Notes under the pieces: generated by a model | The model's database searches: none | The model's input: the letters and a program-made list of their open reading frames with translations, nothing else | What the model was told of the DNA's origin: nothing | Translations under genes and position numbers: made by a program | Part shown: piece by piece, positions 9,419-58,115 of the stretch | How positions within the stretch are numbered: position 1 is the first letter of the stretch | How the letters are laid out: each line of letters opens with the position of its first letter | DNA from: Candidatus Poseidoniaceae archaeon | Lineage (GTDB): Archaea > Thermoplasmatota > Poseidoniia > Poseidoniales > Poseidoniaceae | Length of the DNA: 64,000 nt | Direction: 5' to 3' | Assembly: GCA_028822845.1 (NCBI GenBank) | Contig: JAPKCS010000007.1 | Span: 2,649-66,648, forward strand

Positions 9419-9886
9419 TTATTCTTCTTCGAGGATGGTCCGACGCGCTTTTTGAGCCGTTATCGTAGCAAAAGTGGACCCTAAGGCCAATCCGAGGGCA
9501 AGAAGAATCGCTCCTGCTGAAACAAACATGTGAACGAGGTTGTACAGCACCTGAGCGCGCACAGAACCATTGTCTTCCATCAGCAAATCGCCCTGGTTCA
9601 ACAAGAAGACCGTCGTAAGAAGACCGATCGAGGCTGCTGCCAGCATACCAATCAAAGGAGCGAGAGGGCGTTGGCGGGAATCTGCATAGAAGAAGAGGTT
9701 GCCAAGAAGAAGCAGAGAGCCGAGCGTGTAGGATGTGAGCAGGGCGTTAGCGAACCGAGGAAGGCTATCGGTACCAGCGCCTACTGAACCACCAAGGGTG
9801 AGATCGAGCGCCCATAGAGAGACCAGCGGGAGAAGGAAGGCAACAAGCATGGCTCGCCAAGTGACCACAAGTTTGCCATCACTCAT
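9419..9886 (-). CDS. Hypothetical integral membrane protein (about 4 TM)
   Basis: ORF 9419..9916, start taken at MSDGKLVV (9886), which overlaps the upstream stop by 8 nt. Several hydrophobic helices. Ends ...ILEEE. Confidence 0.55.
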   Translation of the reverse strand: MSDGKLVVTWRAMLVAFLLPLVSLWALDLTLGGSVGAGTDSLPRFANALLTSYTLGSLLLLGNLFFYADSRQRPLAPLIGMLAAASIGLLTTVFLLNQGDLLMEDNGSVRAQVLYNLVHMFVSAGAILLALGLALGSTFATITAQKARRTILEEE

Positions 9887-10760
9887 CTTCAGCACCTCCA
9901 AGGTTGGCCGCCACAATGTTGGCGACGAAATTTAATTCCTCATCCGTAGGGGGTTTGACGGATTGTGGTTCAGGCAATCCACGTTCATGCCAATAAATGA
10001 CAAGACCAAACACCAGGATGGAGATGGAAAGGCCGACGGCTGTACCAAGGAGATCGGAGCCGGCAAGCCACAGATGGTATCGGAACGAGGCGGAATCAAC
10101 AGCATGGCCATCGATGGTCATCCCCAGGACAAGCAAGAGGAAGACAAATCCTGAAACAAACCAAAGCATATTTGATTCAGTGCTTCGTTGAACACCTATG
10201 ACCCTGAGGCACAAAGCAGCGCCCGAACAAAGACAAGTCATCAAAAGAAGGAAGGTTGGCAAAAAGACAAGCCAGTAACGGTTTACCTCGCCATTCAGAG
10301 TCGGTGTGAAATCACCCCAATGCATGCCTGTAAACCAAACAACACCGATCATGGTCGCGCCAACACCCAAGCGGCGGTCGCTTTTGGGCAGGCGGCCCAC
10401 CGGCACATTGCCCGAGAACGCAATCAAGTAGAGGCCGACCAGAAGCAGTGCCGATGGCCCGACAATGAACCCGAGTAAATGCCCAGCTTCACTCGATGGA
10501 GATGATGGTACAGTCCAAGGGGTGAGAACAACACCAACGAACCCTAAGAGAACGAGGCAACGTCCAAGTGCCCGCCCCATGGCCTCTTTAGAAGAAAGTG
10601 AAATCCAGAGGCCAAGGGGCATCAGCACAGCGGGAAGCCAAAACCAAACGGCTGCTTCTGCCATCGCATCCATGCTGGTGGCTCCGCCATTGTTCTTATC
10701 AAAGCGACCCCGATTTTCATACGCAGTGGCTTGGTTCCATGGCAATGTGCGATGCGGCAT
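9879..10760 (-). CDS. Hypothetical polytopic membrane protein
   Basis: The 492-aa ORF 9879..11357 is trimmed to an internal ATG at 10760 (alternative 10673), because its upstream 200 codons run antisense through rpl44e/rps27e. The retained part is strongly hydrophobic (WFWLPAVLMPLGLWISL...). Confidence 0.5.
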   Translation of the reverse strand: MPHRTLPWNQATAYENRGRFDKNNGGATSMDAMAEAAVWFWLPAVLMPLGLWISLSSKEAMGRALGRCLVLLGFVGVVLTPWTVPSSPSSEAGHLLGFIVGPSALLLVGLYLIAFSGNVPVGRLPKSDRRLGVGATMIGVVWFTGMHWGDFTPTLNGEVNRYWLVFLPTFLLLMTCLCSGAALCLRVIGVQRSTESNMLWFVSGFVFLLLVLGMTIDGHAVDSASFRYHLWLAGSDLLGTAVGLSISILVFGLVIYWHERGLPEPQSVKPPTDEELNFVANIVAANLGGAEDE

Positions 10761-10805
10761 TTCTAAATACCCGACTCTGGTGGACCGAATGCTTAAGGTG
10801 CTCTT

Positions 10806-11090
10806 ATGGTGAAAATGCCTCGTCAAGTAAAGCGTTACAGTCCGTCGGCTGGCAAGCACACTATGCATACCATCGAGCGTGTGAAGAAAAAGCGCGCCTC
10901 CGAACTTCGCTGGGGTCAGCGCCGGTTCCGCCGTGTTATGGCTGGATACCGTGGTTTCCCACGTCCAAAGCCTGAAGGCCGTGAGAAGCCGACCAAGCGA
11001 GTGAACATTCTCTTCCGTTGCACAGAAACGGGTAAGGCGCATTACGCACCTTGCCAACGTGCTAAGAAGTTTGAATTGATTGACAAGTGA
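10806..11090 (+). CDS. rpl44e: 50S ribosomal protein L44e (eL42), cysteine-poor variant
   Basis: MVKMPRQVKRY...ELRWGQRRFRRV..GYRGFPRPKPEGREKPTKRV...RAKKFEL matches L44e. The expected CxxC pairs read SPSA and CTET. Confidence 0.85.
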   Translation: MVKMPRQVKRYSPSAGKHTMHTIERVKKKRASELRWGQRRFRRVMAGYRGFPRPKPEGREKPTKRVNILFRCTETGKAHYAPCQRAKKFELIDK

Positions 11091-11100
11091 GATGAATACC

Positions 11101-11271
11101 ATGGCAAAGAATTTCCTCAAAGTCGCCTGCAGAGATTGCAGCAACGAAACCACCATCTTCTCCCGAGCGACCACTGTTGTATCTTGCAACGTTTGTGGCG
11201 CTACACTAACCAACCCATCTGGCGGCAAAGCCGATCTCATTGGTTGCACTGTTGTTGAAGCACTCGAGTAA
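11101..11271 (+). CDS. rps27e: 30S ribosomal protein S27e
   Basis: MAKNFLKVACRDCSNETTIFSRATTVVSCNVCG: C-x2-C-x14-C-x2-C ribbon. Conserved position between rpl44e and aIF2alpha. Confidence 0.85.
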   Translation: MAKNFLKVACRDCSNETTIFSRATTVVSCNVCGATLTNPSGGKADLIGCTVVEALE

Positions 11272-11286
11272 GGAGGCTGAGCCTCC

Positions 11287-12078
11287 ATGCCTTCAGTTAA
11301 ATCGTCCAGCACACCCTCTGAAGGCGAACTTGTTGTTGTCTCGGTTACAACCGTCAAACAAAACGGAGCTTATGTCTCCCTGGATGAATTTACAGGTGTT
11401 GAAGGATTCATCTTTATTGGCGAAATCGCCAGCGGATGGGTCAAAAACATCCGTGCCTTTGTTCGAGAAGGACAACGTTTGATTTGCAAGGTGATGCGAA
11501 CCCGTAAGGATGGCACTTCACTGGAACTTTCGCTTAAATCGGTCTCTGAAGAACGTCGCAGAGATCGCCTACAAGAGTGGAAGAATGAACAACGTGCACA
11601 TCAATTGCTCAAGGTCTTGGGCGACAAAGTCGGATGGGACGCTGCAGAAATCGCTTCTTCCGCTGAAGAATTAGCCGATGCCTTTGGTGGATTATACACC
11701 GCTTTTGAAGAAGCTGCAATGAATGAAGGCTCCCTTCAGGATGCCGGATTCGAAGGCGACTGGCTCCAACCCTTCATTGAAATTGCAATGGAGAACATCA
11801 TTCCTCCTTTTGTCGAAATCCGCGGCACCCTCACACTCAGCATCAACGCTACAAACGGCGTCGAGGTGATTCGTGACGCTTTGATGGCTGCTGAATCACA
11901 CACTTCTGAAGAAGAAGAAATTGAAATCACCTGCCATTACAACGGTGCACCAGAATATCGAATCGAATTAAGGGCTCCAGATTTCAAAACCGCTGAAGCC
12001 TTGTGGGAAGAAGTGACGAGCGCCTCGCTCGATCATGTCACTGCAGCTGGTGGCGAAGCAGAAGCCTACCGTGAGTAA
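11287..12078 (+). CDS. eif2a: Translation initiation factor aIF-2 alpha subunit
   Basis: N-terminal S1 domain (GELVVVSVTTVKQNGAYVSLDEF...GFIFIGEIASGWVKNIR), then helical and alpha-beta domains. Conserved operon context. Confidence 0.9.
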   Translation: MPSVKSSSTPSEGELVVVSVTTVKQNGAYVSLDEFTGVEGFIFIGEIASGWVKNIRAFVREGQRLICKVMRTRKDGTSLELSLKSVSEERRRDRLQEWKNEQRAHQLLKVLGDKVGWDAAEIASSAEELADAFGGLYTAFEEAAMNEGSLQDAGFEGDWLQPFIEIAMENIIPPFVEIRGTLTLSINATNGVEVIRDALMAAESHTSEEEEIEITCHYNGAPEYRIELRAPDFKTAEALWEEVTSASLDHVTAAGGEAEAYRE

Positions 12079-12103
12079 AGAATCAACAAAATGTGGTGTA
12101 AAT

Positions 12104-12346
12104 ATGGCTCGACAACTCCTCCAACAATGCCTAACCTGCCAAGCATGGACCCTCGCTACAACATGCCCCGCATGCGGCGAAACGGCTCAAGCAGCTGCCC
12201 CTTTGAAGTGGTCACCTGAAGACAACAGAGCTCCAATTCGCCGAAAGATGTACGAAGTCGAATCACCTGAATGGACTGAAGGCCTACCGACACTGCCCCC
12301 CCTTCAAGAAATGAAAGATGCCCATGTGGCGTCCGAAGAAGAGTGA
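12104..12346 (+). CDS. nop10: H/ACA RNP protein Nop10, with a C-terminal extension of about 25 aa
   Basis: MARQLLQQCLTCQAWTLATTCPACGETAQAAAPLKWSPEDN: zinc ribbon plus the FSPED-like motif. Start at ATG 12104. Tail ends ...ASEEE. Confidence 0.8.
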   Translation: MARQLLQQCLTCQAWTLATTCPACGETAQAAAPLKWSPEDNRAPIRRKMYEVESPEWTEGLPTLPPLQEMKDAHVASEEE

Positions 12347-12378
12347 AAGCCTCGCCTTCAGCAGCACCCTACCTAAAT

Positions 12379-12397
12379 GGGGCCCGTAGCCCCTTTT
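12379..12397 (+). terminator. Putative terminator after nop10: GGGGC-loop-GCCCC hairpin followed by TTTT
   Basis: ggggcccgtagcccc then tttt, 33 nt after the nop10 stop. Read directly from the sequence. Confidence 0.35.
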
Positions 12398-12440
12398 GAA
12401 CATCAAACATTATAGCGCGGCGCGATTCGTTTGAGGAATT

Positions 12441-13196
12441 ATGGGATTGCACATCGAATGGATAAAACAGCCCAACACCCTTGGCGATCATCGGATGATG
12501 TTGTTCGCACTGCCAGGGGTGGGGAACGTAGGGAAAGCCGCACTCGAAGGGCTGACTCAAGTGAATCAGTGCACCGAGTTAGCTCGTTTGCACCACACCG
12601 CACTCCCTCCTTTGGCCATGCTAGATGAGAATGGTTTGCTCTCACCACCACATCTTTCACTTTGCGCTATAGAATCGTCAACTGGAGTCCGCATACTTAC
12701 ACTCACAGGCACATCCCAACCCCTTGAATCCGAACATCAAGGGAGCATGGCCCAAGCCTTGATGTCATGGCTTTCTGAACAAGGAGTCAAAGAACTCTAC
12801 GTGCTTGCTGGACTGATGGATGGACCGACAAGGAAGGAATGCTTCGTCGTCCCATCAAGCGCAGAACATCGAATCGACCTGGAAGCATCAAGCGTTGATG
12901 TCCGACGAGATGAACCACGTTCTGGCGCCATTGGGCTTGCGGCATTAATGGCCTCAGTGGGCCCACTCCACGGCGTTCGTTCGGCATGCGCCATAGCCAC
13001 CACAGTTGGAGCGAGTGGCGATGTTTTTGCATCTCAGCGACTCCTTGAAGCCTTGGATGGATGGTTTGACCTTGGGATCGCACTTCCTGCTGATGCTCAA
13101 GCCATGTTGACCGAGAAACTGGCAGCCCTCGCTCCTAAAAACAAAGAAGATTACGTTTCAGAACTAACAGAATCACCAGATGCCTTCTACATGTGA
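12441..13196 (+). CDS. PAC2-family proteasome assembly chaperone (PbaA/PbaB-like)
   Basis: LFALPGVGNVGKAALEGL N-terminal motif. The C-terminus ...DAFYM fits an HbYX (hydrophobic-Tyr-X) tail. Conserved position after nop10 in euryarchaeal operons. Confidence 0.6.
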   Translation: MGLHIEWIKQPNTLGDHRMMLFALPGVGNVGKAALEGLTQVNQCTELARLHHTALPPLAMLDENGLLSPPHLSLCAIESSTGVRILTLTGTSQPLESEHQGSMAQALMSWLSEQGVKELYVLAGLMDGPTRKECFVVPSSAEHRIDLEASSVDVRRDEPRSGAIGLAALMASVGPLHGVRSACAIATTVGASGDVFASQRLLEALDGWFDLGIALPADAQAMLTEKLAALAPKNKEDYVSELTESPDAFYM

Positions 13197-13223: not shown

Positions 13224-13309
13224 TGGCGCCGAGAGAGAGATTTGAACTCCCGTGTCCAAGGGACAGTGGATTTCGAATCCACCGCAATACCGGGCTATGC
13301 GATCTCGGC
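13224..13309 (-). tRNA. tRNA-Ser (anticodon CGA), class II with long variable arm, CCA encoded
   Basis: GCCGAGA/TCTCGGC is a perfect 7-bp acceptor stem. The anticodon stem is GTGGA/TCCAC with loop TTCGAAA. The variable arm is GTCC-CTT-GGAC. The T arm is GGGAG-TTCAAAT-CTCTC. Discriminator G, then CCA. Confidence 0.9.
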
Positions 13310-13363: not shown

Positions 13364-13564
13364 ATGCAGGTGCGCTTTCAGGGCCGAGACCATGACGTAG
13401 CCGTTGAGTGCACCGAAAACACCACTGTCCGTGCTGCATTGGCCCAGGCGGGCATCCTTGCATCCACCGTGATTGTGAGCTTCGAAGGTGTTGTTCTCCC
13501 TCATGCTACAACGCTGAATGCTGAAACAACATTGTTGGTCACAACAGTGTCGTCTGGCGGTTAA
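13364..13564 (+). CDS. ThiS/MoaD/SAMP-family ubiquitin-like small protein (C-terminal Gly-Gly)
   Basis: 66 aa ending ...TVSSGG immediately before the stop. Length and beta-grasp-like hydrophobic pattern are typical of ThiS/MoaD. Confidence 0.65.
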   Translation: MQVRFQGRDHDVAVECTENTTVRAALAQAGILASTVIVSFEGVVLPHATTLNAETTLLVTTVSSGG

Positions 13565-15408
13565 TCTTCACGATCGACGCGCTCGGTGATTTGGATTTTC
13601 GAGTTGCGATTGATTTGGCCTTTGACATCGATTGCCCAAGCGTCTAAACTGATGTTCGCAGCAACCAAGGTGTCGCCAATTTCTGCAAGGTCGTATTGAG
13701 GACCCCAATCCGCTGCCCAACCTTCAACTTTCATGGAACCCGTTGCATCCAAGAGCATCATTCCTTTTCTGTGCCAAGATTTGCCATTCCGACCGACCCC
13801 TTTCTTTTCAAATCGATACACAAGTCGCCCAGTGACGTTCCAACGTGCTCTGAAGTCCATCAAGGAAGTGTCGATGCTTTCACCTTCCCCAGCGTGAACA
13901 ACAATGGCGTGTGGATCAACTTTCAGCTGCAATTCCCCCTTGTAATTTGCAGAAGGGACGACACCGTCCAATTTCACACGGTCACCTTTGGCTAGGTCTT
14001 GAGGCCAAGCCGGTTGACCGTCTTGATGGGTGTCAACCAGCAGTTGTAATTGAGCAAAGTGACCACCTTGGACCACTTTGATTGTTGGGCGCTTTCCTTC
14101 ACCCCCGCCGAGCACACTGAACACCTCAGCGATCAAGGTCATCCGAGGTTCAAGGGAACCGAAAGCGGTCAAATCAAACGAACCGGAAGATCCCGGCAAG
14201 AGCACTGAACCACCTTCTGGCAGTTCACTTGGACCTTTACCACCCGGGCATATAGCGTTCCAATCACAGCGGGAACAGCGGCTTGTCTTCGGGGCTTGGA
14301 CAGAGACGCCCCCCGGTGCAAAGCCACGCATTGGCGATGGTTCAGGTGGGCATTCATCCATGCTTGGCTTCGTGACCTTGAGTTGGTGCCAAAGGCTGTT
14401 CAAATCGGATTCCATTGCTTTCATTTCCTCGATGGTTGGGACATCAATTGGCTTAATCACATCAGCACCGAGGTACCAGATCTCCAGCGCATCCACCGTT
14501 TCCTTTCGATCGTGGGTGACCCACCAAAGCATGGCATACATTCGTAGTTGTTCGACATAATTTCCAGAACGGTCCCCTGCACCTACGCTCGCTTTCAAAT
14601 CGACAATGTTGATGGTATTGTCCCAGCGGTAGATAAGATCGTATTCACCTTGGAACCAATGTTCTGGGTGAATCGCATTCATTGCGAATTTACCTGCATT
14701 TGGATCAACAAACCAAGGTCGTGTGACTTCCCAAGCCTCAACCCAAGTCACAGGACCCTCTTGTGCCAGCGGGTGTTGGAATGGAAGGTCGTAACTGCGT
14801 CCATCTGGCGAAGGCCAGTGAGGCCGTGCCCCTGCACGCCATTGTTCAAGGTTCGGACCACCCTCGGCAACATGGCATCGCTCAACCTGTGCGAGGTGCA
14901 TTTCAAGGCCCTTGAGGCACATGTCCAAGCAACGCCCAGAATCAACGCTCGACCAATCGCCCGCCTTACGTTCGTCCTTTTCCCATTCGACTTTCATATC
15001 ATTCAAAGCCCGCGGCAGGTGAATCCCTAAGCGTTGTTGGGCCCATGTACGAAGTCCATCAAGGTCGTCTGGCCACATCTCTTCTGGCAAAGCCAATAAG
15101 CGATCTGCAGGCCAAACCATTCCCGTTTCACGCGATGGTACTCCGCTTTGGTCCAGAGGAATATTGGCTAATGTTTCCGCCGAAGCATTGGCTACAAGCA
15201 AGGCCGGTGTTTCCTGCAACATGCGGCAAAAAGCTTCTTCAACGGCTCGACCGACAAAGAGCACTGGGATTTGAGGCATCTTGAAGCGGCGTACTTTTTC
15301 GTAGAACCACAACCTTGGACATGAAGAGTACGCATTGACTTGACTGGCGCTTAACCGATTGAAAGGTCCAATCTCATCGACCTCAGGAACTGCAAGACGG
15401 ACAGGCAT
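13561..15408 (-). CDS. Cas4-type PD-(D/E)XK Fe-S nuclease fused to two C-terminal OB folds (paralog B)
   Basis: N-terminal Cys context LSASQVNAYSSCPRLWFY. Nuclease core GEYDLIYRWDNTINIVDLKAS. QLRMYAMLWW (QxxxY). CSRCDWNAIC (CX2CX5C). C-terminal OB-like KGMMLLDATGSMKVEGWAADW...GDTLVAANISLDAW. Confidence 0.65.
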   Translation of the reverse strand: MPVRLAVPEVDEIGPFNRLSASQVNAYSSCPRLWFYEKVRRFKMPQIPVLFVGRAVEEAFCRMLQETPALLVANASAETLANIPLDQSGVPSRETGMVWPADRLLALPEEMWPDDLDGLRTWAQQRLGIHLPRALNDMKVEWEKDERKAGDWSSVDSGRCLDMCLKGLEMHLAQVERCHVAEGGPNLEQWRAGARPHWPSPDGRSYDLPFQHPLAQEGPVTWVEAWEVTRPWFVDPNAGKFAMNAIHPEHWFQGEYDLIYRWDNTINIVDLKASVGAGDRSGNYVEQLRMYAMLWWVTHDRKETVDALEIWYLGADVIKPIDVPTIEEMKAMESDLNSLWHQLKVTKPSMDECPPEPSPMRGFAPGGVSVQAPKTSRCSRCDWNAICPGGKGPSELPEGGSVLLPGSSGSFDLTAFGSLEPRMTLIAEVFSVLGGGEGKRPTIKVVQGGHFAQLQLLVDTHQDGQPAWPQDLAKGDRVKLDGVVPSANYKGELQLKVDPHAIVVHAGEGESIDTSLMDFRARWNVTGRLVYRFEKKGVGRNGKSWHRKGMMLLDATGSMKVEGWAADWGPQYDLAEIGDTLVAANISLDAWAIDVKGQINRNSKIQITERVDRED

Positions 15409-15441
15409 AACTCGATGTCTTACACCGAGCCTTCTTAAACT

Positions 15442-17217
15442 CTAAGATGAATCTGTTTTGGACTTCAACGTGAGTCTGGTCTTTCTTGTGTCCATTCTCA
15501 ATTGAGGCAAACCTGCTCGCCAGCCCAATTCTGCTGCCATGAGCTGGAGTTCATCGCCGGGACGAATCGACTCCATTTGCCCAGTGATGCTCGAACCGAA
15601 GGCAGCGATTTCGACGACGTGGTTGCCATCCCAGAGGTGCATTGAAAGCATGGTCCAAGGCTTTTCATCCAACCGGACTCCAGAGCGTTTCTGTAAACTC
15701 AGCACCACACCCTCAACGTTGGCACGGGTTCGAAGAAGTCCGAGCCGGGTGGTGTGAGCACTGAGATCTATGCCTTTTTCATCGAACCGCTGTTGAGCAT
15801 CGCTTAACGAAAGCACCTCACTTTTGGCATCGAGGTACAGTCGAGGAGCACCACGCCAGACGCCTGGAAGGGCATCGAGGATGACAATGTCCCCTTTTGG
15901 ACCTTCATGCAACTTTGGAAAAGATCCCGGTTCACTTTCTTCAACCGTCAACTGGACGCCGCCTGCAACCAGCATAGCACCTAAGACAGGTTCACTGAAG
16001 TGGTTTGGTAAAGGACCCCATGCACCCGTAAAAGAACCTTGGACGTTGACACGGTTCGGTATTTCTGAAAGGGTTTGACTTGGTGAAGTGATGTTCAGTT
16101 CTCGAATCGATGTGATGCTGTCGAGCAATTCATCGTTGGTGAAGGTGCCATCTTGATCCCGTGCTAGGCTGCACCAGTGGCAACCAGCAGCTTCGCCATC
16201 GCACGCATCTCCTGGAAGAGCAGGGAGAGCGACCGGGCCGGAACCCATGGTTTGCATCGCTTTATTGACCGAAAAGAATTCTTCTGTCATCGATGCGATT
16301 TCTTCGAGGGTCGGAGGTGTGTATTCAATCCGATGGGGTCCAGAGAGGTACCAGCCTTCCAAACCATCCACGAGCATGGTGTCGTGCGTCTCATGCCACA
16401 ACCAGGCGTAGAATCGAAGTTGGTGCTGCAAGGAAGAAGCAAACCGAGATGTAGGATCTCCTGATTTGACATCAATCAAGCGTATCCGCCCATCCCAACG
16501 CATGACTAAGTCTAATTCGCCTGCAGCCCAACCACCTGGATGGTACAGTCGTTGAGGTTGATGAACCCGTGGATCTTTGACCCAAGGGCGAGCGATCTCC
16601 CAGGCTTCATGCCATGAAACAGGTGCGCCAGGGGCATTCCAAACCATCGGTTCATCTTTCGCCCATGTTCGCATTCCAAAACTTCGAACTTTTTCTGGAA
16701 CTGGGAACTTAGGTTCGTCACCCCATGCCGGTGATGGAATCTCAAATGGTGCGTCGTCAGCACGGTAGCGTTCAACAAACGGGCCACCATGTTCGCTGTG
16801 GCACCGGTTGACTTCCTCCATGAACAACGTCATCCCCGATCTGAGTTTTTCTTCTAAGACTTCGACGTGAACATCGTCCCACGAAGACCCTTCGGCATGC
16901 CAAAGCGATGCTTGCCAGGCGGTCAAACCATCATCATAAGCCCGTTGTGCGGCCTCGGGTATTTTCTCGTTAATCCAGAGACTTAGCGATGTAAGTGAGT
17001 CTATGCTTGCATCTGGCCGATGCATGAATAAACCGCACAACTGATCTTCGATCACAATTCCCAACACCTGGGATGGGTTGGTTGGGCCAGAAAGCCCAAG
17101 TTTCCTCCCGAGGAACCATTGTCGCTGACATCGAAGAAACGTCGTCAATCCACTGGCAGAGATTCTGGATCTCGAGCGGCCTAATGGCCCTCCAAGTGGT
17201 GGATTTCCGACTGGCAT
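15442..17217 (-). CDS. Cas4-type PD-(D/E)XK Fe-S nuclease fused to C-terminal OB folds (paralog A)
   Basis: ISASGLTTFLRCQRQWF, GELDLVMRWDGRIRLIDVKSG, QLRFYAWLW, CDGEAAGCHWC. C-terminal OB-like WTMLSMHLWDGNHVVEIAAFG...PGDELQLMAAELGW. Collinear with the neighbouring paralog. Confidence 0.65.
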   Translation of the reverse strand: MPVGNPPLGGPLGRSRSRISASGLTTFLRCQRQWFLGRKLGLSGPTNPSQVLGIVIEDQLCGLFMHRPDASIDSLTSLSLWINEKIPEAAQRAYDDGLTAWQASLWHAEGSSWDDVHVEVLEEKLRSGMTLFMEEVNRCHSEHGGPFVERYRADDAPFEIPSPAWGDEPKFPVPEKVRSFGMRTWAKDEPMVWNAPGAPVSWHEAWEIARPWVKDPRVHQPQRLYHPGGWAAGELDLVMRWDGRIRLIDVKSGDPTSRFASSLQHQLRFYAWLWHETHDTMLVDGLEGWYLSGPHRIEYTPPTLEEIASMTEEFFSVNKAMQTMGSGPVALPALPGDACDGEAAGCHWCSLARDQDGTFTNDELLDSITSIRELNITSPSQTLSEIPNRVNVQGSFTGAWGPLPNHFSEPVLGAMLVAGGVQLTVEESEPGSFPKLHEGPKGDIVILDALPGVWRGAPRLYLDAKSEVLSLSDAQQRFDEKGIDLSAHTTRLGLLRTRANVEGVVLSLQKRSGVRLDEKPWTMLSMHLWDGNHVVEIAAFGSSITGQMESIRPGDELQLMAAELGWRAGLPQLRMDTRKTRLTLKSKTDSS

Positions 17218-17232
17218 AATCTCACCATTACC

Positions 17233-19005
17233 TCAGTGTTCAAAGGAATAGAAATCCCCAATTTCACGTTGCTCTCGATCTTTGCGGCTTGCAGGCTTAT
17301 TGATTCGAGGGCGCTTTGAATCATGGTCTCGACGGAATGTGATGTTGACGCTTTGAAGGAAACGATTCATCCCTTCTCGAAGTCGGAACGGGCCTTTCGC
17401 AGAACCTTGTACCGCACCTTCGCCTTCGAACACGAGCAACGAGTCACTTACGATGTCGATGAAATATACGTCATGGTCAATCACAAAGGCTGATTTGTCA
17501 TTCGTTTCCATCGTTTTGCGGATCGCTTTGGCAGCGACCATACGAGCGTTTGCATCAAGGTGAGCCGATGGCTCATCGAACAGATACAGGTCTGCATCGC
17601 GGCCCAGGCAAATGGCAATTGCAACCGCTTGGCGCTCACCACCTGAGAGTTTCTTCACTCGCTTCGGTAGCAATTTATCTACGCCAAGAGCACGAATCAC
17701 GGTGACATTGAATTCACCAGAACGCCACTTTGAACCCATTTCGGTGTCGAGCCAAAGTTGGACGCTTCCATCAAAGTCAGCAGTCACATGTTGTGGTTTG
17801 TACGAAATTGTTGCGCCGTCGGAGACCCAGCCAGCATCGTAATCGAGTTCACCTGCAAGGATCTTGATCATGGTGGATTTCCCAGTCGCATTGGGTCCTA
17901 CAACGCCTACGACCTCTGAGCGATGAACGGAACCTTTTCCGGTCCTCAGAGTGAAATCTCCAAGCTTCTTTTCGAGGTCGCCCCATTCGAGAACGGTGCT
18001 CCCAAGCTCATTTGATCGTTCGTAGTGCTTCAAAAATTTAATTGGTTTGTCGCGGATACGTACATTCTCTTCCGCCAAAAATCCATCCAAATAAGCGTTG
18101 ATAGCGGTGCGGGTCGAACGAGAGGGCGTAAAGATCCCATACGCACCCTTCTCTCCATAAACGATGTGAACCAAATCACATAGAACATCCAGAATAGCCA
18201 AATCGTGTTCGACGACGAGAACCCGTTTGCCCTTTTCGGCCAATGCCTGTAGGATCAACACCATTCGCATCCGCTCGTAAATATCGAGGTAGGATGATGG
18301 TTCATCGAAGAAATAGATATCCGCTTCTTTGAGCAAGGTCGCACAGATTGCAACCCGTTGTAACTCACCACCTGAGAGAACGCCAAGTTTACGCCCAAGA
18401 ATATGCGTGATTCCAAGCTGCTCAGAGAGTGTATCGATCTCATTTCTGTCATCGACCCTCTCGAGGAGTTCTCGAACTTCACCATCAAACACTTTGGGTA
18501 ATTTGTCAATGTGTTGAGGTTTGACCGAAATCGTCACTTTACCTTCTGAAACTAAGCCGAGATAGTCCCGAAGTTCACCGCGTGGGAACATTGTGATGAC
18601 ATCCTCCCAATCAGGTGGGGGGTTTTTCCAATCTCCAAGGTTTGGTCGAAGGGATCCCGAAAGGTGCTTGATGGCAGTCGATTTACCAATTCCGTTTGGA
18701 CCAAGTATCCCGACAACCTGACGTTTCCGAGGTGCAGGGAGGCGAAAGAGACGAAAACCATTCAATGAGAACTGATGAATCATGTCGGTATCGAGTTCTT
18801 CAGGGAGATTGATGATTTTGACCGCGCCATCCGGGCATAGCTTAGCTCGGATAAGGCACGGTGGGCAAGCAGACTCAAGGATCTTACAGTGATCTTCGTA
18901 GACTTGAATGCATTCGCCACCACACAATCCTGCATACTTTTGCAAGTACTTGAATGCGTTACTGTTCGGTTTGCAACGCTCTTGAAGAAGGATTGCGACT
19001 CTCAT
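17233..19005 (-). CDS. abce1: ABCE1 / RNase L inhibitor-type ribosome recycling ATPase
   Basis: N-terminal double 4Fe-4S Cys clusters (CKPNS...CGGEC...CPPCLIRAKLCP). Two ABC modules (GPNGIGKST / LSGGELQRV and GPNATGKST / LSGGERQAV). Confidence 0.95.
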   Translation of the reverse strand: MRVAILLQERCKPNSNAFKYLQKYAGLCGGECIQVYEDHCKILESACPPCLIRAKLCPDGAVKIINLPEELDTDMIHQFSLNGFRLFRLPAPRKRQVVGILGPNGIGKSTAIKHLSGSLRPNLGDWKNPPPDWEDVITMFPRGELRDYLGLVSEGKVTISVKPQHIDKLPKVFDGEVRELLERVDDRNEIDTLSEQLGITHILGRKLGVLSGGELQRVAICATLLKEADIYFFDEPSSYLDIYERMRMVLILQALAEKGKRVLVVEHDLAILDVLCDLVHIVYGEKGAYGIFTPSRSTRTAINAYLDGFLAEENVRIRDKPIKFLKHYERSNELGSTVLEWGDLEKKLGDFTLRTGKGSVHRSEVVGVVGPNATGKSTMIKILAGELDYDAGWVSDGATISYKPQHVTADFDGSVQLWLDTEMGSKWRSGEFNVTVIRALGVDKLLPKRVKKLSGGERQAVAIAICLGRDADLYLFDEPSAHLDANARMVAAKAIRKTMETNDKSAFVIDHDVYFIDIVSDSLLVFEGEGAVQGSAKGPFRLREGMNRFLQSVNITFRRDHDSKRPRINKPASRKDREQREIGDFYSFEH

Positions 19006-21182: not shown

Positions 21183-21296
21183 AAGAATCGCTTGGAACCC
21201 ACGAGAAATCACCATCTCCATACCATCGTGTCGAGAACCTTCATTTGCTCTCGGCCACGACCGAAAACTCTAGCGGAAGCAAGGAGGCCGAGGTGC

Positions 21297-23948
21297 ATGA
21301 CAAAACGGGGCATGATGGACCAATTTATGGACATCAAGGCGGAACACCCAGACTCCGTTTTATTTTTCAGAATGGGTGACTTTTACGAACTCTTTCACGA
21401 AGATGCTGTTACCGGCTCTGAAGTGCTTGGTTTGGCTCTCACTTCCCGGGACAAGAAAGCAGATGCACCCATCCAGATGGCTGGATTCCCTTGGCATGCC
21501 CTCGAGGACAACATTCGAACCATGCTGCGGTCAGGGCACAAAGTCACGGTGGCTGAACAGGAAAAAGAACTCAGAGAGGGCGCTAAGTTGCTCGAACGTA
21601 TTGTCACTCGAGTCTACACCCCCGGAAGCCTGTATGAAGAATCCTTACTCGGTAGCGATGATCGCTCACTTCTCGTCAGTATTTGCCTGGCAAAGGAAAC
21701 ACTCGGCATTGGAATCATCGATGCTTCAACCGGCCAGGCATGGGCTTCAAGCCTTGAAGGGGATGACCGATTTTCTCGAGCGCTTGATGAGGTGCTACGC
21801 TGGCGCCCAACCGAAATTGTAGTCTCGCCAAAGGACGCAGAAGATGCGACACTGCGCGCCTTATTCACACACCTCGATGGTGTCACCATCAGCCAACATC
21901 GAGCCAGTGATTCAAAGCGAAGAGACCGCCTCACCAAGGTCCTCAAAGTCGCCGATTTAGGTCACATCGACCTCGATAGTGCTCCCTTGGCGTTGGCAGC
22001 AGCAGGGCTAGCAGCAGACTACCTCGCCTCAATGCATCTCACAGACGAAGTCCCACTGCGGGACCTTGAGGTCATGGAAGAGAACGCTCATCTTGTTCTT
22101 GATCAAACCACCTTGAGGAACTTGGAATTAACCTCAACGCTTGCCGGCGAGTACGAGGGGAGCCTCCTCTCAACACTGAATGCTTGCCGAAGTGCCATGG
22201 GTCGTCGGTTGCTCAAGACATGGATTCTTCGCCCCCTCGCCGATTTGCAAGCAATCGCAGCACGCCATGACGCAGTCGGAGCCCTTTCGCGCTCGGCTCG
22301 CAGGCTTGACGGATTGCGAGAAGCCCTCAAAGGACTTCGGGACATGGAACGGCTCGCCACCCAATTGGCATACAACCGTTCGAATGGTCGTGACTTGTTG
22401 GCCGTCGCTGATGCCTTGGAACGAATGCCAGCAATCATCAACCTCTGCTCCGAAACAAAAAACCCGCTTCTGCTCCACCTTTCATCGGACCTCAATGCTC
22501 TGCAAGAAACAGCCGAGAACATCAGAAGAACCCTTGTCGAGGAACCACCGCTTAGTGTTCGAGATGGCGGATTGCTTCGCCCTGGATTTGATTCGAAGGT
22601 CGATGCTTTGCGTGAGACTGCTGCATCGGGCCATACATGGTTTGCAGAATTGGAAACCAAACTCAAGAAAGAATTGGAAATACCTTCACTTAAAGTGAGA
22701 ATGAACCGACAAATTGGTTGGTTCATTGAAGTCACGAAGATCAATGAATCAAAAACGCCAGAACACTGGAAGAGAAAGCAACAAATGACCAATGGTTCGA
22801 GGTACGTCACCGATGAATTATTGCAGCGCGATGATGCCTTGTTGACTGCAGATACCAAGTCGAAGGAATTGGAGTACCGGGCGTTTATTGACCTACGAGA
22901 AACATGCAGAACTGATGCGCAAACCTTGGCGCAAATTGCCGGTAAGGTTGCTGCAATCGATGTACTGCAGTGTTTTGGAACCATTGCTCGGACGCGAGCA
23001 TGGAATCGCCCTGAAATGGTGGAATCGGGCATCATTCGAGCTGAAGGCGCACGTCACCCGGCCCTTGAGCAACAGTCGGGGTTCGTCCCAAACGACTTAG
23101 AATTAAACAAAAAACGCAACTTCCTACTCATCACCGGGCCGAACATGGGCGGTAAGTCCACCTACCTCAGAACGACTGCCTTGTTGACAATCCTGGCCCA
23201 AAGTGGTTCCTTCGTTCCAGCAACCAGCGCTAAGATTGGCCTCGTCGATCGTATTTTCACCCGGGTTGGGGCGAGCGATGACCTTCGTCGAGGGCGTTCA
23301 ACCTTCATGATGGAAATGATTGAGGTCGCTCATATCTTACGACGAGCCACTTCCAAATCGTTGATCTTACTGGATGAAATTGGGAGAGGGACCTCCACGT
23401 TCGATGGCTTATCCATCGCCTGGTCCGTTACTGAAGACATCTGTAAACGAATTCAAGCCAGAACATTGTTTGCGACCCACTATCACCAATTGATTGGCCT
23501 CGAAGGCGAAGTCAATGGTTTGGTAAACGTCCATGTTCAAGTGGCGCAAGCCAATGGGGAACTGAGGTTTATGCATACGGTTGCAGATGGCCCTTGTGAT
23601 GATTCATACGGGGTTCAAGTTGCTGCTCTTGCCGGCCTTCCACGGCCGGTGGTTGAACGGGCCACTGACCTCTTGGCCTTCTTAGAGAATCAAGCGCAGG
23701 GGGCAAAAGCAGGAGAAACTGGCACACCAACAGCAAGAGCCCAGGGGCAATCGAGCCTCATGGGGTACTTTGCTGCTGCCGCAATGGGTCAATTGCCTGA
23801 AGAAACAAAAGTCGATCCTTTCCCGCAAGCACACAGAGATCTCATTGCGAGGATCGAAGGTCTGGATGTTGATGAGTTAAGTCCACGGCAAGCACATGAT
23901 GCTCTGTATCAACTGAAGAAACTACTCGGAGATGATGTCCATGAATGA
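21297..23948 (+). CDS. mutS: DNA mismatch repair protein MutS (bacterial MutS1 type)
   Basis: FFRMGDFYELF, Walker A ITGPNMGGKSTYLR, DEIGRGTSTFDG. Start at ATG 21297, preceded by AGGAGG. Confidence 0.95.
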   Translation: MTKRGMMDQFMDIKAEHPDSVLFFRMGDFYELFHEDAVTGSEVLGLALTSRDKKADAPIQMAGFPWHALEDNIRTMLRSGHKVTVAEQEKELREGAKLLERIVTRVYTPGSLYEESLLGSDDRSLLVSICLAKETLGIGIIDASTGQAWASSLEGDDRFSRALDEVLRWRPTEIVVSPKDAEDATLRALFTHLDGVTISQHRASDSKRRDRLTKVLKVADLGHIDLDSAPLALAAAGLAADYLASMHLTDEVPLRDLEVMEENAHLVLDQTTLRNLELTSTLAGEYEGSLLSTLNACRSAMGRRLLKTWILRPLADLQAIAARHDAVGALSRSARRLDGLREALKGLRDMERLATQLAYNRSNGRDLLAVADALERMPAIINLCSETKNPLLLHLSSDLNALQETAENIRRTLVEEPPLSVRDGGLLRPGFDSKVDALRETAASGHTWFAELETKLKKELEIPSLKVRMNRQIGWFIEVTKINESKTPEHWKRKQQMTNGSRYVTDELLQRDDALLTADTKSKELEYRAFIDLRETCRTDAQTLAQIAGKVAAIDVLQCFGTIARTRAWNRPEMVESGIIRAEGARHPALEQQSGFVPNDLELNKKRNFLLITGPNMGGKSTYLRTTALLTILAQSGSFVPATSAKIGLVDRIFTRVGASDDLRRGRSTFMMEMIEVAHILRRATSKSLILLDEIGRGTSTFDGLSIAWSVTEDICKRIQARTLFATHYHQLIGLEGEVNGLVNVHVQVAQANGELRFMHTVADGPCDDSYGVQVAALAGLPRPVVERATDLLAFLENQAQGAKAGETGTPTARAQGQSSLMGYFAAAAMGQLPEETKVDPFPQAHRDLIARIEGLDVDELSPRQAHDALYQLKKLLGDDVHE

Positions 23949-53377: not shown

Positions 53378-58115
<4,738 letters not shown>

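What the first reader, a model, noticed from the sequence alone, without database searches (positions are those of the whole stretch)
13561..17217. Tandem paralogous Cas4-type Fe-S nucleases, each fused to RPA-like OB folds, with no helicase and no CRISPR context
SEEN: Two adjacent same-strand ORFs (591 aa at 15442-17217 and 615 aa at 13561-15408, 33-nt gap) share one architecture and collinear blocks: EAWEIARPWVKDPR / EAWEVTRPWFVDPN, and LEGWYLSGPHRIEYTPPTLEEIASMTEEF / LEIWYLGADVIKPIDVPTIEEMKAMESDL. Each has four nuclease-type elements:
- an N-terminal Cys after an S-A-S motif (ISASGLTTFLRCQRQWF / LSASQVNAYSSCPRLWFY);
- a D...D-x-K core (GELDLVMRWDGRIRLIDVKSG / GEYDLIYRWDNTINIVDLKAS);
- a QLRxYA helix;
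- a distal Cys triad (CDGEAAGCHWC / CSRCDWNAIC, the latter being CX2CX5C).

The last ~200 aa of each read as OB barrels, for example KGMMLLDATGSMKVEGWAADW...IGDTLVAANISLDAW.

ESTABLISHED: One N-terminal Cys plus a C-terminal Cys triad bracketing a PD-(D/E)XK core with QxxxY defines the Cas4/AddB/Dna2-type iron-sulfur nuclease domain. The D-x-TG...W...GD pattern is typical of RPA/SSB OB folds.

INFERENCE: This may be a heterodimeric, motor-less nuclease that processes ssDNA or DNA ends. I do not recognise a nuclease plus 2xOB fusion as a characterised family. The pair is co-directional with rpl10e-ABCE1 upstream, with only 15 nt between the ABCE1 stop and paralog A's start, so it may be constitutively expressed.
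Basis: partly seen in the sequence, partly recalled or inferred. Interest (0 to 1): 0.7.

Follow-up and report, generated by a model that had tools for sequence, protein, structure and literature searches.

The report
Paired iron-sulfur nucleases with built-in OB folds
Two neighbouring genes found across the abundant ocean archaea Poseidoniales (Marine Group II) each join a Cas4/RecB-type iron-sulfur nuclease to two RPA-like DNA-binding barrels, a conserved but uncharacterised pair that probably trims single-stranded DNA ends during repair or replication.

Summary

**What is there**
- ORF A (15442-17217, minus strand, 591 aa) and ORF B (13561-15408, minus strand, 615 aa) are full-length paralogues (BLASTP E=1e-35).
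- Both match Pfam PDDEXK_1 (E~1e-14).
- Both keep invariant D, DxK and QxxxY motifs, plus one N-terminal and three C-terminal cysteines.
- Both end in two OB folds. AlphaFold2 models have pLDDT 82-84. Foldseek top hits are RPA70 DBD-A/B, HIN-200, POT1 and archaeal RPA.
- There is no helicase domain, no cas gene and no CRISPR array.

**Conservation**
- The order ABCE1, A, B holds in 71 of 72 informative Poseidoniales genome loci, and in MGIIb and a 70%-GC lineage.
- dN/dS is 0.04-0.07.
- In a 35%-GC clade, B is replaced in place by a DEDDh 3'-5' exonuclease, and A has lost all four cysteines together.

**Status**
- I found no characterised homologue, solved structure or paper. Databases call them "PD-(D/E)XK nuclease family protein".
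- Best reading (about 0.5): a housekeeping A·B two-nuclease complex that holds ssDNA with its own OB folds, like a helicase-less Dna2 or the nuclease halves of AddAB.
- Complex formation, iron-sulfur binding and the DNA (rather than RNA) substrate are inferred, not shown.

It is a new variant of a known kind, of moderate interest.

The parts
15442..17217 (-). Gene A (591 aa): Cas4/RecB-type Fe-S PD-(D/E)XK nuclease domain plus two C-terminal OB folds
   Evidence: ORF. Pfam PDDEXK_1 E=2.2e-14. AF2 model pLDDT 84, pTM 0.83. 362 homologues, the named ones from Poseidoniales/MGII.
16162..17172 (-). A nuclease domain (aa 16-352), including a helical insertion (about aa 60-200) and a conserved but low-confidence loop (aa 164-188)
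   Evidence: Secondary structure and pLDDT. Invariant columns. Coordinates checked.
16408..16518 (-). A catalytic core: E234, D236 ... D249-V-K251 ... Q266-LRF-Y270
   Evidence: Invariant in 25 orthologues. D236, D249, K251, Q266 and Y270 are also invariant in deep lineages and bacterial relatives; E234 is nearly so. Codons verified.
17128..17130 (-). A N-terminal cluster cysteine C30
   Evidence: Invariant. Replaced by Gly only in the clade that also lost the Cys triad.
16171..16203 (-). A C-terminal cysteine triad C339-x6-C346-x2-C349, shifted from the canonical CX2CX5C seen in deeper A-type lineages
15808..16056 (-). A OB fold 1 (aa 388-470)
   Evidence: Beta-strands E390-470 in the AF2 model. 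Foldseek tandem-OB hits.
15463..15732 (-). A OB fold 2 (aa 496-585)
   Evidence: AF2 strands E498-584. Foldseek. Profile hit to P. abyssi RPA, E=5.7e-4.
15409..15441 (-). 33-nt A-B spacer
   Evidence: Median A-to-B spacer is 37 nt in 74 loci. In L082 the called A and B genes overlap by 4 nt.
13561..15408 (-). Gene B (615 aa): paralogue of A with the same architecture
   Evidence: ORF. BLASTP against A E=1e-35. Pfam PDDEXK_1 E=1.1e-14. AF2 pLDDT 82, pTM 0.79.
14239..15363 (-). B nuclease domain (aa 16-390) with a B-specific insertion of about 40 aa (about aa 69-109)
   Evidence: Foldseek viral library: PD-(D/E)XK nuclease of HCTV-1 (E 8.4e-5, TM 0.56 on target) and RecB exonuclease of phage P23-45.
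14536..14646 (-). B catalytic core: E255, D257 ... D270-L-K272 ... Q287-LRM-Y291
   Evidence: Invariant. Codons verified.
14248..14277 (-). B cysteine triad C378-x2-C381-x5-C387; the fourth ligand C30 is at 15319-15321
   Evidence: Invariant. Aligns in register with the CX2CX5C of Cas4 4r5q, sub-threshold.
13891..14151 (-). B OB fold 1 (aa 420-506)
   Evidence: AF2 strands. Foldseek tandem-OB hits.
13579..13848 (-). B OB fold 2 (aa 521-610)
   Evidence: AF2 strands. Foldseek. RPA profile hit. Weak PF01336 hits in 5 of 27 family members.
17233..19005 (-). ABCE1 (ribosome-recycling ABC ATPase), immediately upstream and co-directional; the most conserved neighbour of A
   Evidence: Pfam ABC_tran x2. 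15-nt gap. ABCE1-to-A spacer has a median of 17 nt in 67 loci. The adjacency is kept in all lineages.

Best explanation
A and B are two subunits of a housekeeping, motor-less nuclease of Poseidoniales that acts on single-stranded DNA or DNA ends.

Each subunit is a Mg2+-dependent PD-(D/E)XK nuclease of the Cas4/AddB/Dna2 class. Four cysteines brace its fold and most likely hold an iron-sulfur cluster. Each subunit carries its own RPA-like tandem OB module. That module probably captures ssDNA and feeds it to the active site, giving affinity and processivity without an ATPase.

The two paralogues most likely form an A·B heterodimer with two active sites and four OB folds. Such a complex could trim overhangs, flaps or resected break ends in recombinational repair or at stalled forks, with unwinding supplied by a helicase encoded elsewhere.

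Shown by computation: domain content, conserved catalytic and cysteine residues, OB folds, order-wide paired conservation, purifying selection, and absence of helicase or CRISPR context.

Inferred: iron-sulfur binding, nuclease activity, ssDNA substrate and polarity, heterodimer formation and the pathway.
For: - Nuclease domain: PDDEXK_1 hits well above threshold in both proteins and in all 27 family members scanned.
- Catalytic residues: D, DxK and QxxxY are invariant in A-type, B-type, deep-lineage and bacterial relatives. Both subunits therefore look catalytically competent.
- Iron-sulfur ligands: the 1+3 cysteine set is conserved. It is lost all together in one clade (G at position 30 and the triad deleted), which argues that the four residues act as one unit.
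- Cas4 register: Cas4 4r5q is the best PDB sequence match, with its N- and C-terminal Cys motifs in register.
- OB module: tandem OB folds match ssDNA binders best, namely RPA70 A/B, POT1, Teb1 and archaeal RPA, and LEF-3/SSB in the viral library.
- Compact build: high pTM (0.83 and 0.79) suggests the OB folds pack in a defined way against the nuclease domain.
- Pairing: B follows A in 71 of 72 loci with short spacers, and the called genes overlap by 4 nt in L082.
- Co-inheritance: divergences of A and B correlate at r=0.98 and track MutS and PurF. dN/dS is 0.04-0.07.
- Natural replacement: in 13 contigs of a 35%-GC clade, a DEDDh exonuclease (Pfam RNase_T, E 3.9e-19) sits exactly where B should be. 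This fits a module built from two cooperating nucleases.
- Candidate interfaces: A has segments that are conserved yet low-confidence in the monomer model, aa 1-14 and 164-188.
- From established knowledge: characterised Cas4, AddB, Dna2 and EXO5 nucleases of this cysteine-braced class all act on ssDNA or DNA ends.
Against: - There is no biochemical or structural evidence for an A-B complex. I could not run a multimer prediction.
- No repair or replication gene is consistently linked. The MutS/MutL neighbourhood is limited to Poseidoniaceae.
- The only universally conserved neighbour is ABCE1, a translation factor. That could point to an RNA substrate.
- OB folds and PD-(D/E)XK domains can both act on RNA, and the DEDDh family that replaces B includes RNases.
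- One single-cell genome (L021) has A without B.
- Bacterial relatives work as single genes with one OB-sized C-terminal domain. So a heterodimer is not intrinsic to the fold.
- I could not check whether Poseidoniales lack NurA/HerA, Dna2 or other resection nucleases.
Confidence: 0.5

Rival explanations
1. A and B are RNA-directed nucleases that work with ABCE1. After ABCE1 splits stalled or terminating ribosomes, the OB folds bind the released single-stranded mRNA and the PD-(D/E)XK sites degrade it. This would be an archaeal mRNA-surveillance or no-go-decay nuclease.
For: - ABCE1-to-A is the most conserved adjacency, with spacers of 3-52 nt in nearly all of 67 loci, across MGIIa, MGIIb, the 70%-GC and the 35%-GC lineages, even though the genes upstream of ABCE1 differ.
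- The surrounding genes are translation-related: uL16, L44e, eIF2alpha, Nop10.
- The exonuclease that replaces B belongs to the RNase_T family, which includes RNases.
- OB folds bind RNA in many proteins, and the weak Pfam OB hits are to the tRNA_anti-codon family.
Against: - To my knowledge, every characterised member of the cysteine-braced Cas4/AddB/Dna2/EXO5 class is a DNA nuclease.
- The best structural and profile matches of the OB module are ssDNA binders (RPA, POT1, Teb1, LEF-3), not S1/CSD-type RNA binders.
- Synteny within one order can persist without functional coupling. Archaeal informational genes for replication and translation are known to be interleaved (PMC2643942).
- ABCE1's divergence is uncorrelated with that of A and B (r=0.32), so ABCE1 has a separate history.
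Confidence: 0.13
2. A and B do not form a complex. They are subfunctionalised paralogues that act separately, for example as homo-oligomers like Cas4, on different DNA substrates or polarities. They stay adjacent only because they arose by tandem duplication.
For: - Both keep complete active sites and complete OB modules, so neither needs the other for catalysis.
- Bacterial relatives are solo genes.
- L021 has A alone.
- The 35%-GC clade keeps A without B next to it.
- Each monomer model is compact and confident on its own.
Against: - The duplication predates the MGIIa/MGIIb split, yet the pair has stayed adjacent with short spacers. The called genes overlap in one lineage, which suggests coupled translation.
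- Divergence is tightly correlated (r=0.98).
- When B is lost, another nuclease takes its exact slot and A changes its cysteine set at the same time.
Confidence: 0.22
3. The pair is a defence or anti-mobile-element system, a 'solo-Cas4'-type nuclease that degrades invading DNA.
For: - Weak PADLOC hits to the DruK, Cas4 and Cas4-like nuclease models.
- Weak PHROG exonuclease hits.
- Hudaiberdiev et al. 2017 suggest uncharacterised defence or repair roles for solo-Cas4 (PMC5704561).
Against: - The locus is fixed in a housekeeping neighbourhood in every lineage.
- Inheritance is vertical, tracking MutS and PurF.
- Purifying selection is strong.
- No defence-island genes, integrases or CRISPR-cas lie nearby.
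- The PADLOC hits cover only the generic nuclease motifs.
Confidence: 0.07
4. They are CRISPR-adaptation Cas4 proteins.
For: JGI labels some B orthologues 'CRISPR/Cas system-associated exonuclease Cas4 (RecB family)'.
Against: - TIGR00372 scores are 13 and 22 bits against a cut-off of 65.
- There is no cas1/cas2 and no CRISPR array in the window or in related loci.
- The proteins are three times the size of Cas4 and carry extra domains.
Confidence: 0.01

Closest known systems
Cas4 / solo-Cas4 (COG1468, PF01930; e.g. Pyrobaculum calidifontis Cas4, PDB 4r5q)
   Same: PD-(D/E)XK core with QxxxY, one N-terminal Cys and a C-terminal CX2CX5C triad. It is the best PDB sequence match, with both Cys motifs in register. 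It is common in archaea as a vertically inherited non-CRISPR gene (PMC5704561).
   Different: Cas4 is about 200 aa with a single domain. A and B are about 600 aa, with a large helical insertion and two OB folds. They fail the Cas4 equivalog threshold, match PF12705 rather than PF01930, have no cas context, and occur as a paralogous pair.
AddAB / AdnAB nuclease domains (bacterial break-resection helicase-nucleases)
   Same: Two different subunits are encoded by adjacent genes, each with a RecB-type nuclease domain. AddB carries the same 1+3 Cys iron-sulfur brace. The Pfam family is the same (PF12705). The logic may be the same: one nuclease per DNA strand.
   Different: No SF1 helicase or ATPase domain is present in either protein. 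ssDNA handling appears to be supplied by fused OB folds instead of a motor.
Dna2 (eukaryotic and archaeal nuclease-helicase)
   Same: It combines an iron-sulfur-braced PD-(D/E)XK nuclease with an OB fold in one polypeptide, acts on ssDNA flaps and ends, and works with RPA (own knowledge; PMC8586334 appeared).
   Different: Dna2 has one N-terminal OB fold and an SF1B helicase. A and B have two C-terminal OB folds and no helicase. Only 1 of 27 members gives even a weak PF08696 hit (E 0.055).
RPA (P. abyssi RPA1 8aa9/8aaj; RPA70 DBD-A/B 1jmc, 4gop)
   Same: Tandem OB folds are the best structural match (E down to 4e-9). OB2 gives a sequence-profile hit at E=5.7e-4.
   Different: RPA has no catalytic domain. 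It has zinc-ribbon and winged-helix modules and forms a trimerisation core, none of which was detected here.
EXO5 and NucS/EndoMS
   Same: EXO5 is a motor-less iron-sulfur Cas4-like ssDNA exonuclease. Archaeal NucS joins a RecB-like nuclease to an ssDNA-binding beta-barrel domain (own knowledge).
   Different: EXO5 has no OB folds. NucS has no cysteine cluster, is a homodimer of about 250 aa, and its DNA-binding domain is N-terminal and not RPA-like. Neither appeared in any search here.
Bacterial relatives (about 430-480 aa; one labelled Planctomycetes)
   Same: They have the same nuclease domain, with all motifs and CX2CX5C, and score as weak members of the family, 77-107 bits to the B profile.
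   Different: They have room for only one OB-sized C-terminal domain, which I did not model. They are solo genes with no ABCE1 or paralogue context, and are equally uncharacterised.

Membership tests
PD-(D/E)XK nuclease superfamily, PDDEXK_1 branch (PF12705; RecB/AddB/Cas4-like) | Profile match above Pfam's gathering score | tested here: met
   54.4 and 55.4 bits against a cut-off of 22. 27 of 27 family members match, best E 5.3e-18.
PD-(D/E)XK nuclease superfamily, PDDEXK_1 branch (PF12705; RecB/AddB/Cas4-like) | Catalytic motifs: D (motif II), (D/E)xK (motif III) and QxxxY | tested here: met
   A has D236, D249-x-K251 and Q266-x3-Y270. B has D257, D270-x-K272 and Q287-x3-Y291. All are invariant in orthologues, deep lineages and bacterial relatives.
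PD-(D/E)XK nuclease superfamily, PDDEXK_1 branch (PF12705; RecB/AddB/Cas4-like) | Restriction-endonuclease-like alpha/beta fold | tested here: met
   The AF2 model of B aligns with the HCTV-1 PD-(D/E)XK nuclease (E 8.4e-5, TM 0.56 on target) and with the phage P23-45 RecB exonuclease. In the PDB search, nuclease hits were crowded out of the top 50 by OB hits.
PD-(D/E)XK nuclease superfamily, PDDEXK_1 branch (PF12705; RecB/AddB/Cas4-like) | Metal-dependent nuclease activity | not testable with these tools
   Needs purified protein.
Cysteine-braced (Fe-S) Cas4/AddB/Dna2/EXO5 nuclease class | One Cys before the core and three after it, conserved | tested here: met
   A has C30 plus C339, C346 and C349. 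B has C30 plus C378, C381 and C387. All are invariant. Most lineages have CX2CX5C. All four are lost together in one clade.
Cysteine-braced (Fe-S) Cas4/AddB/Dna2/EXO5 nuclease class | Bound [4Fe-4S] or [2Fe-2S] cluster | not testable with these tools
   Needs UV-vis/EPR on anaerobically purified protein.
Cas4 proper (CRISPR adaptation; TIGR00372/COG1468) | Score above the curated equivalog cut-off | tested here: not met
   13.2 and 22.3 bits against 65.
Cas4 proper (CRISPR adaptation; TIGR00372/COG1468) | Encoded next to cas1/cas2 or a CRISPR array | tested here: not met
   No repeat arrays in 64 kb. The neighbours are ABCE1, uL16, PAC2, eIF2alpha, MutS and MutL. The context is the same in 80+ loci.
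AddAB/AdnAB/RecBCD helicase-nucleases | SF1 helicase/ATPase domains in the nuclease subunits | tested here: not met
   No helicase or P-loop family hits either protein or any of the 27 relatives at E<=0.1.
AddAB/AdnAB/RecBCD helicase-nucleases | Two distinct adjacent subunits, each with a RecB-type nuclease domain | tested here: met
   This is a resemblance in layout only.
Dna2 | Fe-S nuclease plus OB fold plus SF1B helicase; PF08696 match | tested here: not met
   Nuclease and OB folds are present, but there is no helicase. PF08696 hits only 1 of 27 members, at E 0.055.
RPA/SSB | OB folds of the RPA type | tested here: met
   Foldseek E 4e-9 and 9e-9 to RPA70. Profile hit to P. abyssi RPA at E 5.7e-4.
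RPA/SSB | Non-catalytic ssDNA-coating protein with zinc-ribbon DBD-C and trimerisation core | tested here: not met
   The OB folds are fused to a nuclease. No Rep_fac-A_C or related Pfam hits were found.

The most novel reading that the evidence does not exclude
The ABCE1-A-B operon is a functional unit in which a Cas4-class nuclease pair is coupled to ribosome recycling. The pair would degrade mRNA released from stalled ribosomes, or the ABCE1 twin-ATPase would act as the missing motor or regulator of the nucleases. That would be the first RNA-surveillance role, or the first ABC-ATPase partnership, for a cysteine-braced PD-(D/E)XK nuclease, and a candidate for the unknown archaeal no-go-decay nuclease.
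Probability: 0.1. Interest if true: 0.85.

Novelty: new variant of a known kind. Interest (0 to 1): 0.55.

Why it matters
Poseidoniales (Marine Group II) are among the most abundant archaea in the surface ocean and remain uncultured, so their genome-maintenance machinery is known only from sequence.

This pair is conserved across the Poseidoniales lineages sampled here, is under strong purifying selection, and sits in a core informational-gene neighbourhood. It is likely to be an essential or near-essential enzyme. It is annotated only as "PD-(D/E)XK nuclease family protein" or "hypothetical", and I found no paper on it.

The architecture is a Cas4/AddB-type nuclease with its own tandem RPA-like ssDNA-binding module, duplicated into a two-gene set. 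It shows a way to build a DNA-end processor without a helicase. It could be the resection or flap nuclease of mesophilic archaea, where NurA/HerA are not reported to be universal (papers listed place them in all known thermophilic archaea).

The clade in which B is swapped for a DEDDh exonuclease, and A loses its cysteines at the same time, is a natural experiment. It can be used to study subunit roles and what the iron-sulfur brace is for.

Tried and rejected
**Searches that found nothing useful**
- Single-sequence PDB searches found nothing meaningful. Profile searches gave only RPA on OB2 and a marginal Cas4 hit.
- NCBIfam gave only a sub-threshold cas4 hit.
- PADLOC and PHROGs hit only the generic nuclease motifs, so I did not pursue a defence reading.
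- Literature searches found no description of a Cas4-like plus OB fusion or of this family. I checked the Cas4 phylogenomics paper, the PD-(D/E)XK superfamily survey, Poseidoniales plus nuclease, and RecB-like plus OB/RPA.

**Ideas tested and dropped**
- Link to mismatch repair (MutS/MutL lie 4 kb away): rejected, because that adjacency exists only in Poseidoniaceae. MGIIb and the 70%-GC lineage have SQS_PSY upstream instead.
- CRISPR context: no arrays found.
- Bacterial relatives: their gene neighbourhoods show no recurring nucleic-acid-processing partner.

**Limits of the tools**
- The PDB Foldseek lists were filled by OB hits, so the closest solved nuclease fold could not be read off. The viral library gave nuclease hits instead.
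- No multimer prediction was possible.
- I could not test whether NurA, HerA, Mre11, Rad50 or Dna2 are present in Poseidoniales genomes.

Full report
**1.

The window carries two adjacent minus-strand ORFs exactly as described.
- A is at 15442-17217 and encodes 591 aa.
- B is at 13561-15408 and encodes 615 aa.
- 33 nt separate the A stop from the B start. 15 nt separate the stop of the upstream gene from the A start.

The upstream gene is ABCE1, with two ABC_tran domains. Before it lies uL16/L10e.

A and B are paralogues over their whole length. BLASTP gives E=1e-35 and 24% identity, collinear through the C-terminal region.

**2. Domain content**

*Nuclease domain*
- Both proteins match Pfam PDDEXK_1 (PF12705) at 54-55 bits against a cut-off of 22. 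All 27 family members scanned match too.
- In 25 A orthologues the invariant residues include C30, E57, D236, D249, K251, Q266, Y270, C339, C346 and C349.
- In 30 B orthologues they include C30, E57, D257, D270, K272, Q287, Y291, C378, C381 and C387.
- The same D, DxK and QxxxY residues are kept in every deep-branching and bacterial relative.
- Both paralogues therefore look catalytically competent. Neither looks like a degenerate partner.
- The AF2 model of B also aligns with viral PD-(D/E)XK and RecB-family nucleases.

*Cysteine set*
- The pattern is one Cys before the core and three after it, as in the Cas4/AddB/Dna2/EXO5 class.
- B and most lineages have CX2CX5C.
- The A proteins of MGIIa, including this window, have CX6CX2C. 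One ligand appears to have moved from downstream to upstream.

*OB folds*
- AF2 models are confident: A has pLDDT 84.1 and pTM 0.83, B has 82.4 and 0.79. Each shows two beta-barrels after the nuclease domain.
- Foldseek against the PDB puts tandem-OB proteins first for both: RPA70 DBD-A/B (4gop_C at E 4e-9 and 9e-9; 1jmc_A), HIN-200 domains, POT1, Teb1 and Pyrococcus abyssi RPA.
- A sequence profile of the family hits P. abyssi RPA on OB2 at E=5.7e-4.
- Five of 27 members give weak PF01336 hits.

*What is absent*
- No helicase or ATPase family is detected.
- There are no CRISPR-like repeats in the 64-kb window. None of the neighbouring genes I annotated is a cas gene.

**3. Distribution and conservation**

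*Who has it*
- Homologues of A and B number 362 and 371 clusters. The named ones come from Candidatus Poseidoniaceae, Poseidoniales or "Euryarchaeota archaeon", and are labelled "PD-(D/E)XK nuclease family protein" or "hypothetical".
- A scan of one genome per species found 212 loci. Nearly all of the best 80 are titled Poseidoniales or an unclassified marine archaeon; two bins carry bacterial titles but hold the same archaeal gene order.
- An exhaustive profile search of 1.84 billion cluster representatives found only 489 hits, 76 of them below 1e-30. The full-length hits sort cleanly into A-type or B-type.
- The family is therefore narrow, and the duplication is old.

*Gene order*
- Where the contig extends far enough, Poseidoniaceae loci show MutS(-), p436(-) | uL16, ABCE1, A, B | PAC2, Nop10, eIF2alpha (convergent).
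- B follows A in 71 of 72 loci with room for it. The exception is the single-cell assembly L021, where B is cleanly missing.
- The median ABCE1-to-A spacer is 17 nt and the median A-to-B spacer is 37 nt.
- MGIIb/Thalassarchaeaceae (L085) and a 70%-GC lineage (L081, on a 3.0-Mb contig, and L082) keep ABCE1, A, B, then PAC2/eIF2alpha/S27e/L44e. Upstream of ABCE1 they have SQS_PSY instead.
- In L082 the called A and B genes overlap by 4 nt.

*Selection and inheritance*
- dN/dS against the nearest relative is 0.044 for A and 0.067 for B.
- Across loci, A and B divergence correlate at r=0.98. Both track MutS and PurF at 0.95-0.97. ABCE1 does not (r=0.32).
- This is the signature of a vertically inherited housekeeping pair, not a mobile defence module.

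**4. A natural experiment**

One A-type representative, P0256, lacks both the N-terminal Cys and the whole triad. Its contig shows ABCE1, then the A-variant, then a 278-aa DEDDh exonuclease in the slot of B. The exonuclease matches Pfam RNase_T at E 3.9e-19 and carries the motifs FDLETTG, YNVGFD and HDALAD.

A metagenome scan recovered 13 contigs of this 35%-GC clade, from different samples and 77-100% identical to each other.
- All 13 have the A-variant followed by the exonuclease. No B lies next to A in any of them.
- In the eight full-length A-variants I translated, the sequence reads WERG(K/Q)R in place of WERCPR, has no CX2CX5C, and keeps GEMD...DIK...QLRFY intact.

Two inferences follow.
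- The four cysteines behave as one functional unit, as expected for cluster ligands.
- The module is a team of two nucleases in which an unrelated exonuclease can take over the B position. I cannot exclude that B is encoded elsewhere in those genomes.

**5. Most likely mechanism**

By analogy with characterised members of this nuclease class (Cas4, AddB, Dna2, EXO5; own knowledge), the enzyme most likely cuts ssDNA or DNA ends. The RPA-like character of the OB module points the same way.

The fused tandem OB folds would hold and thread ssDNA. This role is played in trans by RPA for Dna2 and by motor domains in AddAB.

High pTM values suggest the OB folds are docked on the nuclease domain rather than loosely tethered.

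Four observations favour an A·B heterocomplex with two active sites and four OB folds:
- the constant pairing;
- the short or overlapping spacers;
- the correlated evolution;
- conserved segments of A (aa 1-14, 164-188) that the monomer model cannot place.

Unwinding would need a helicase encoded elsewhere. A Hel308-like gene lies 27 kb away in the window, but it is not linked.

I put this reading at about 0.5. The substrate, the polarity, the complex and the pathway are all inferred.

**6. Rival readings**

- *ABCE1-coupled RNA nuclease (0.13).* ABCE1-to-A is the one adjacency kept in every lineage. The neighbourhood is rich in translation genes, and the replacement exonuclease family includes RNases. 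Against it, no member of this nuclease class is known to work on RNA, and the OB matches are to ssDNA binders. Replication and translation genes are also known to be interleaved in archaea (LSIN cluster; PMC2643942).
- *Independent paralogues without a complex (0.22).* This is compatible with the bacterial solo relatives and with L021.
- *Defence (0.07) and CRISPR Cas4 (0.01).* Both are disfavoured by context, inheritance pattern and failed thresholds.

**7. Comparison with known families**

The proteins are members of the PD-(D/E)XK PDDEXK_1 family and carry the Cas4-class cysteine brace. Those membership tests were met.

They are not any of the following:
- Cas4 proper, because the equivalog score and the cas context both fail;
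- AddAB, AdnAB or RecBCD, because there is no helicase;
- Dna2, because there is no helicase and no PF08696 match;
- RPA, because the OB folds are fused to a catalytic domain.

In working terms they most resemble a helicase-less Dna2 or the paired nuclease domains of AddAB.

No solved structure, curated family or paper describes a Cas4-like nuclease fused to tandem OB folds.

A small set of about 25 bacterial clusters (one labelled Planctomycetes) carries the nuclease with one OB-sized C-terminal domain as a solo gene. These are also uncharacterised.

**8. Verdict**

- Real feature, observation confirmed, first-reader interpretation supported as far as computation can go.
- Novelty: new variant of a known kind. 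The domains are known. The fusion, the paralogous pairing and the fixed ABCE1 linkage in a major ocean archaeal order are new.
- Interest 0.55. It is a solid, testable candidate for an undescribed archaeal DNA-end nuclease, with a useful natural variant. It is not a categorically new mechanism.

Noticed in passing
L087 6001-8672; L088-L098 and L101-L103 (metagenome contigs, about 35% GC): In a low-GC Poseidoniales-like clade, B is replaced in place by a 278-aa DEDDh (RNase_T family) exonuclease. The A protein there has lost all four cluster cysteines but keeps its catalytic motifs and both OB folds. Seen in 13 contigs from different samples.
   Followed up: yes
window 17233-19005 (-), N-terminal about 60 aa of ABCE1: This ABCE1 lacks the canonical CxxCxxCxxxCP ferredoxin motif and gave no Fer4_RLI/Fer4 Pfam hit at E<=0.001. 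It has seven cysteines in different positions. 16 of 73 Poseidoniales loci share the variant and 57 are canonical. ABCE1 identity does not track the neighbours (r about 0.2-0.3, against 0.95-0.98 among A, B, MutS and PurF). This suggests two ABCE1 types exchanged between lineages.
   Followed up: partly
window 13364-13564 (+): A 66-aa ORF ends in Gly-Gly and overlaps the stop codon of B by 4 nt, convergent. A gene of the same size in the same position in MGIIb (L085/L086) has a weak Pfam SAMP2 hit, and 66-aa genes also follow B in L081/L082. It is probably a ubiquitin-like small archaeal modifier. Its orientation relative to B differs between lineages. Pfam gave no hit for the window copy.
   Followed up: partly
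window 13224-13309 (-): tRNA-Ser(CGA) lies between the PAC2 gene and the 66-aa ORF.
   Followed up: no
window 10806-13196 (+): The archaeal 'LSIN' cluster is present and convergent with A-B: L44e at 10806-11090, eIF2alpha at 11287-12078, Nop10 within 12035-12346, then a PAC2-family gene at 12441-13196 (S27e was not looked for in the window). The mechanical 492-aa ORF at 9879-11357 (-) overlaps L44e, so its N-terminal part is probably spurious.
   Followed up: partly
window 21192-25971 (+): Bacterial-type MutS (all five MutS domains) and MutL lie side by side, divergent from the uL16-ABCE1-A-B block. The MutS adjacency to A/B is limited to Poseidoniaceae; MutL was annotated only in the window.
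   Followed up: partly
window 44164-46782 (-); 53378-58112 (-): The same window holds a Hel308/Hjm-like helicase (DEAD plus archaeal helicase domain 4) and DNA gyrase A and B. So the region is rich in DNA-metabolism genes, but they are not linked to A/B.
   Followed up: no
L021 about 6050-6920 (single-cell genome AG-333-I22): A is followed directly by the downstream small-gene and tRNA region, and B is cleanly absent. This could be a real deletion or a single-cell assembly artefact.
   Followed up: partly
P0326, P0360, P0365, P0448-P0468; L083, L084, L104: About 25 bacterial clusters (one labelled Planctomycetes; two sampled contigs, L083 and L084, have 74% GC) encode a 430-480-aa relative. 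It has the full nuclease and CX2CX5C motifs and one OB-sized C-terminal domain, which I did not model. It is always a solo gene in unrelated housekeeping contexts.
   Followed up: partly
window 40692-43540 (-): An adjacent TldD/PmbA metallopeptidase pair.
   Followed up: no
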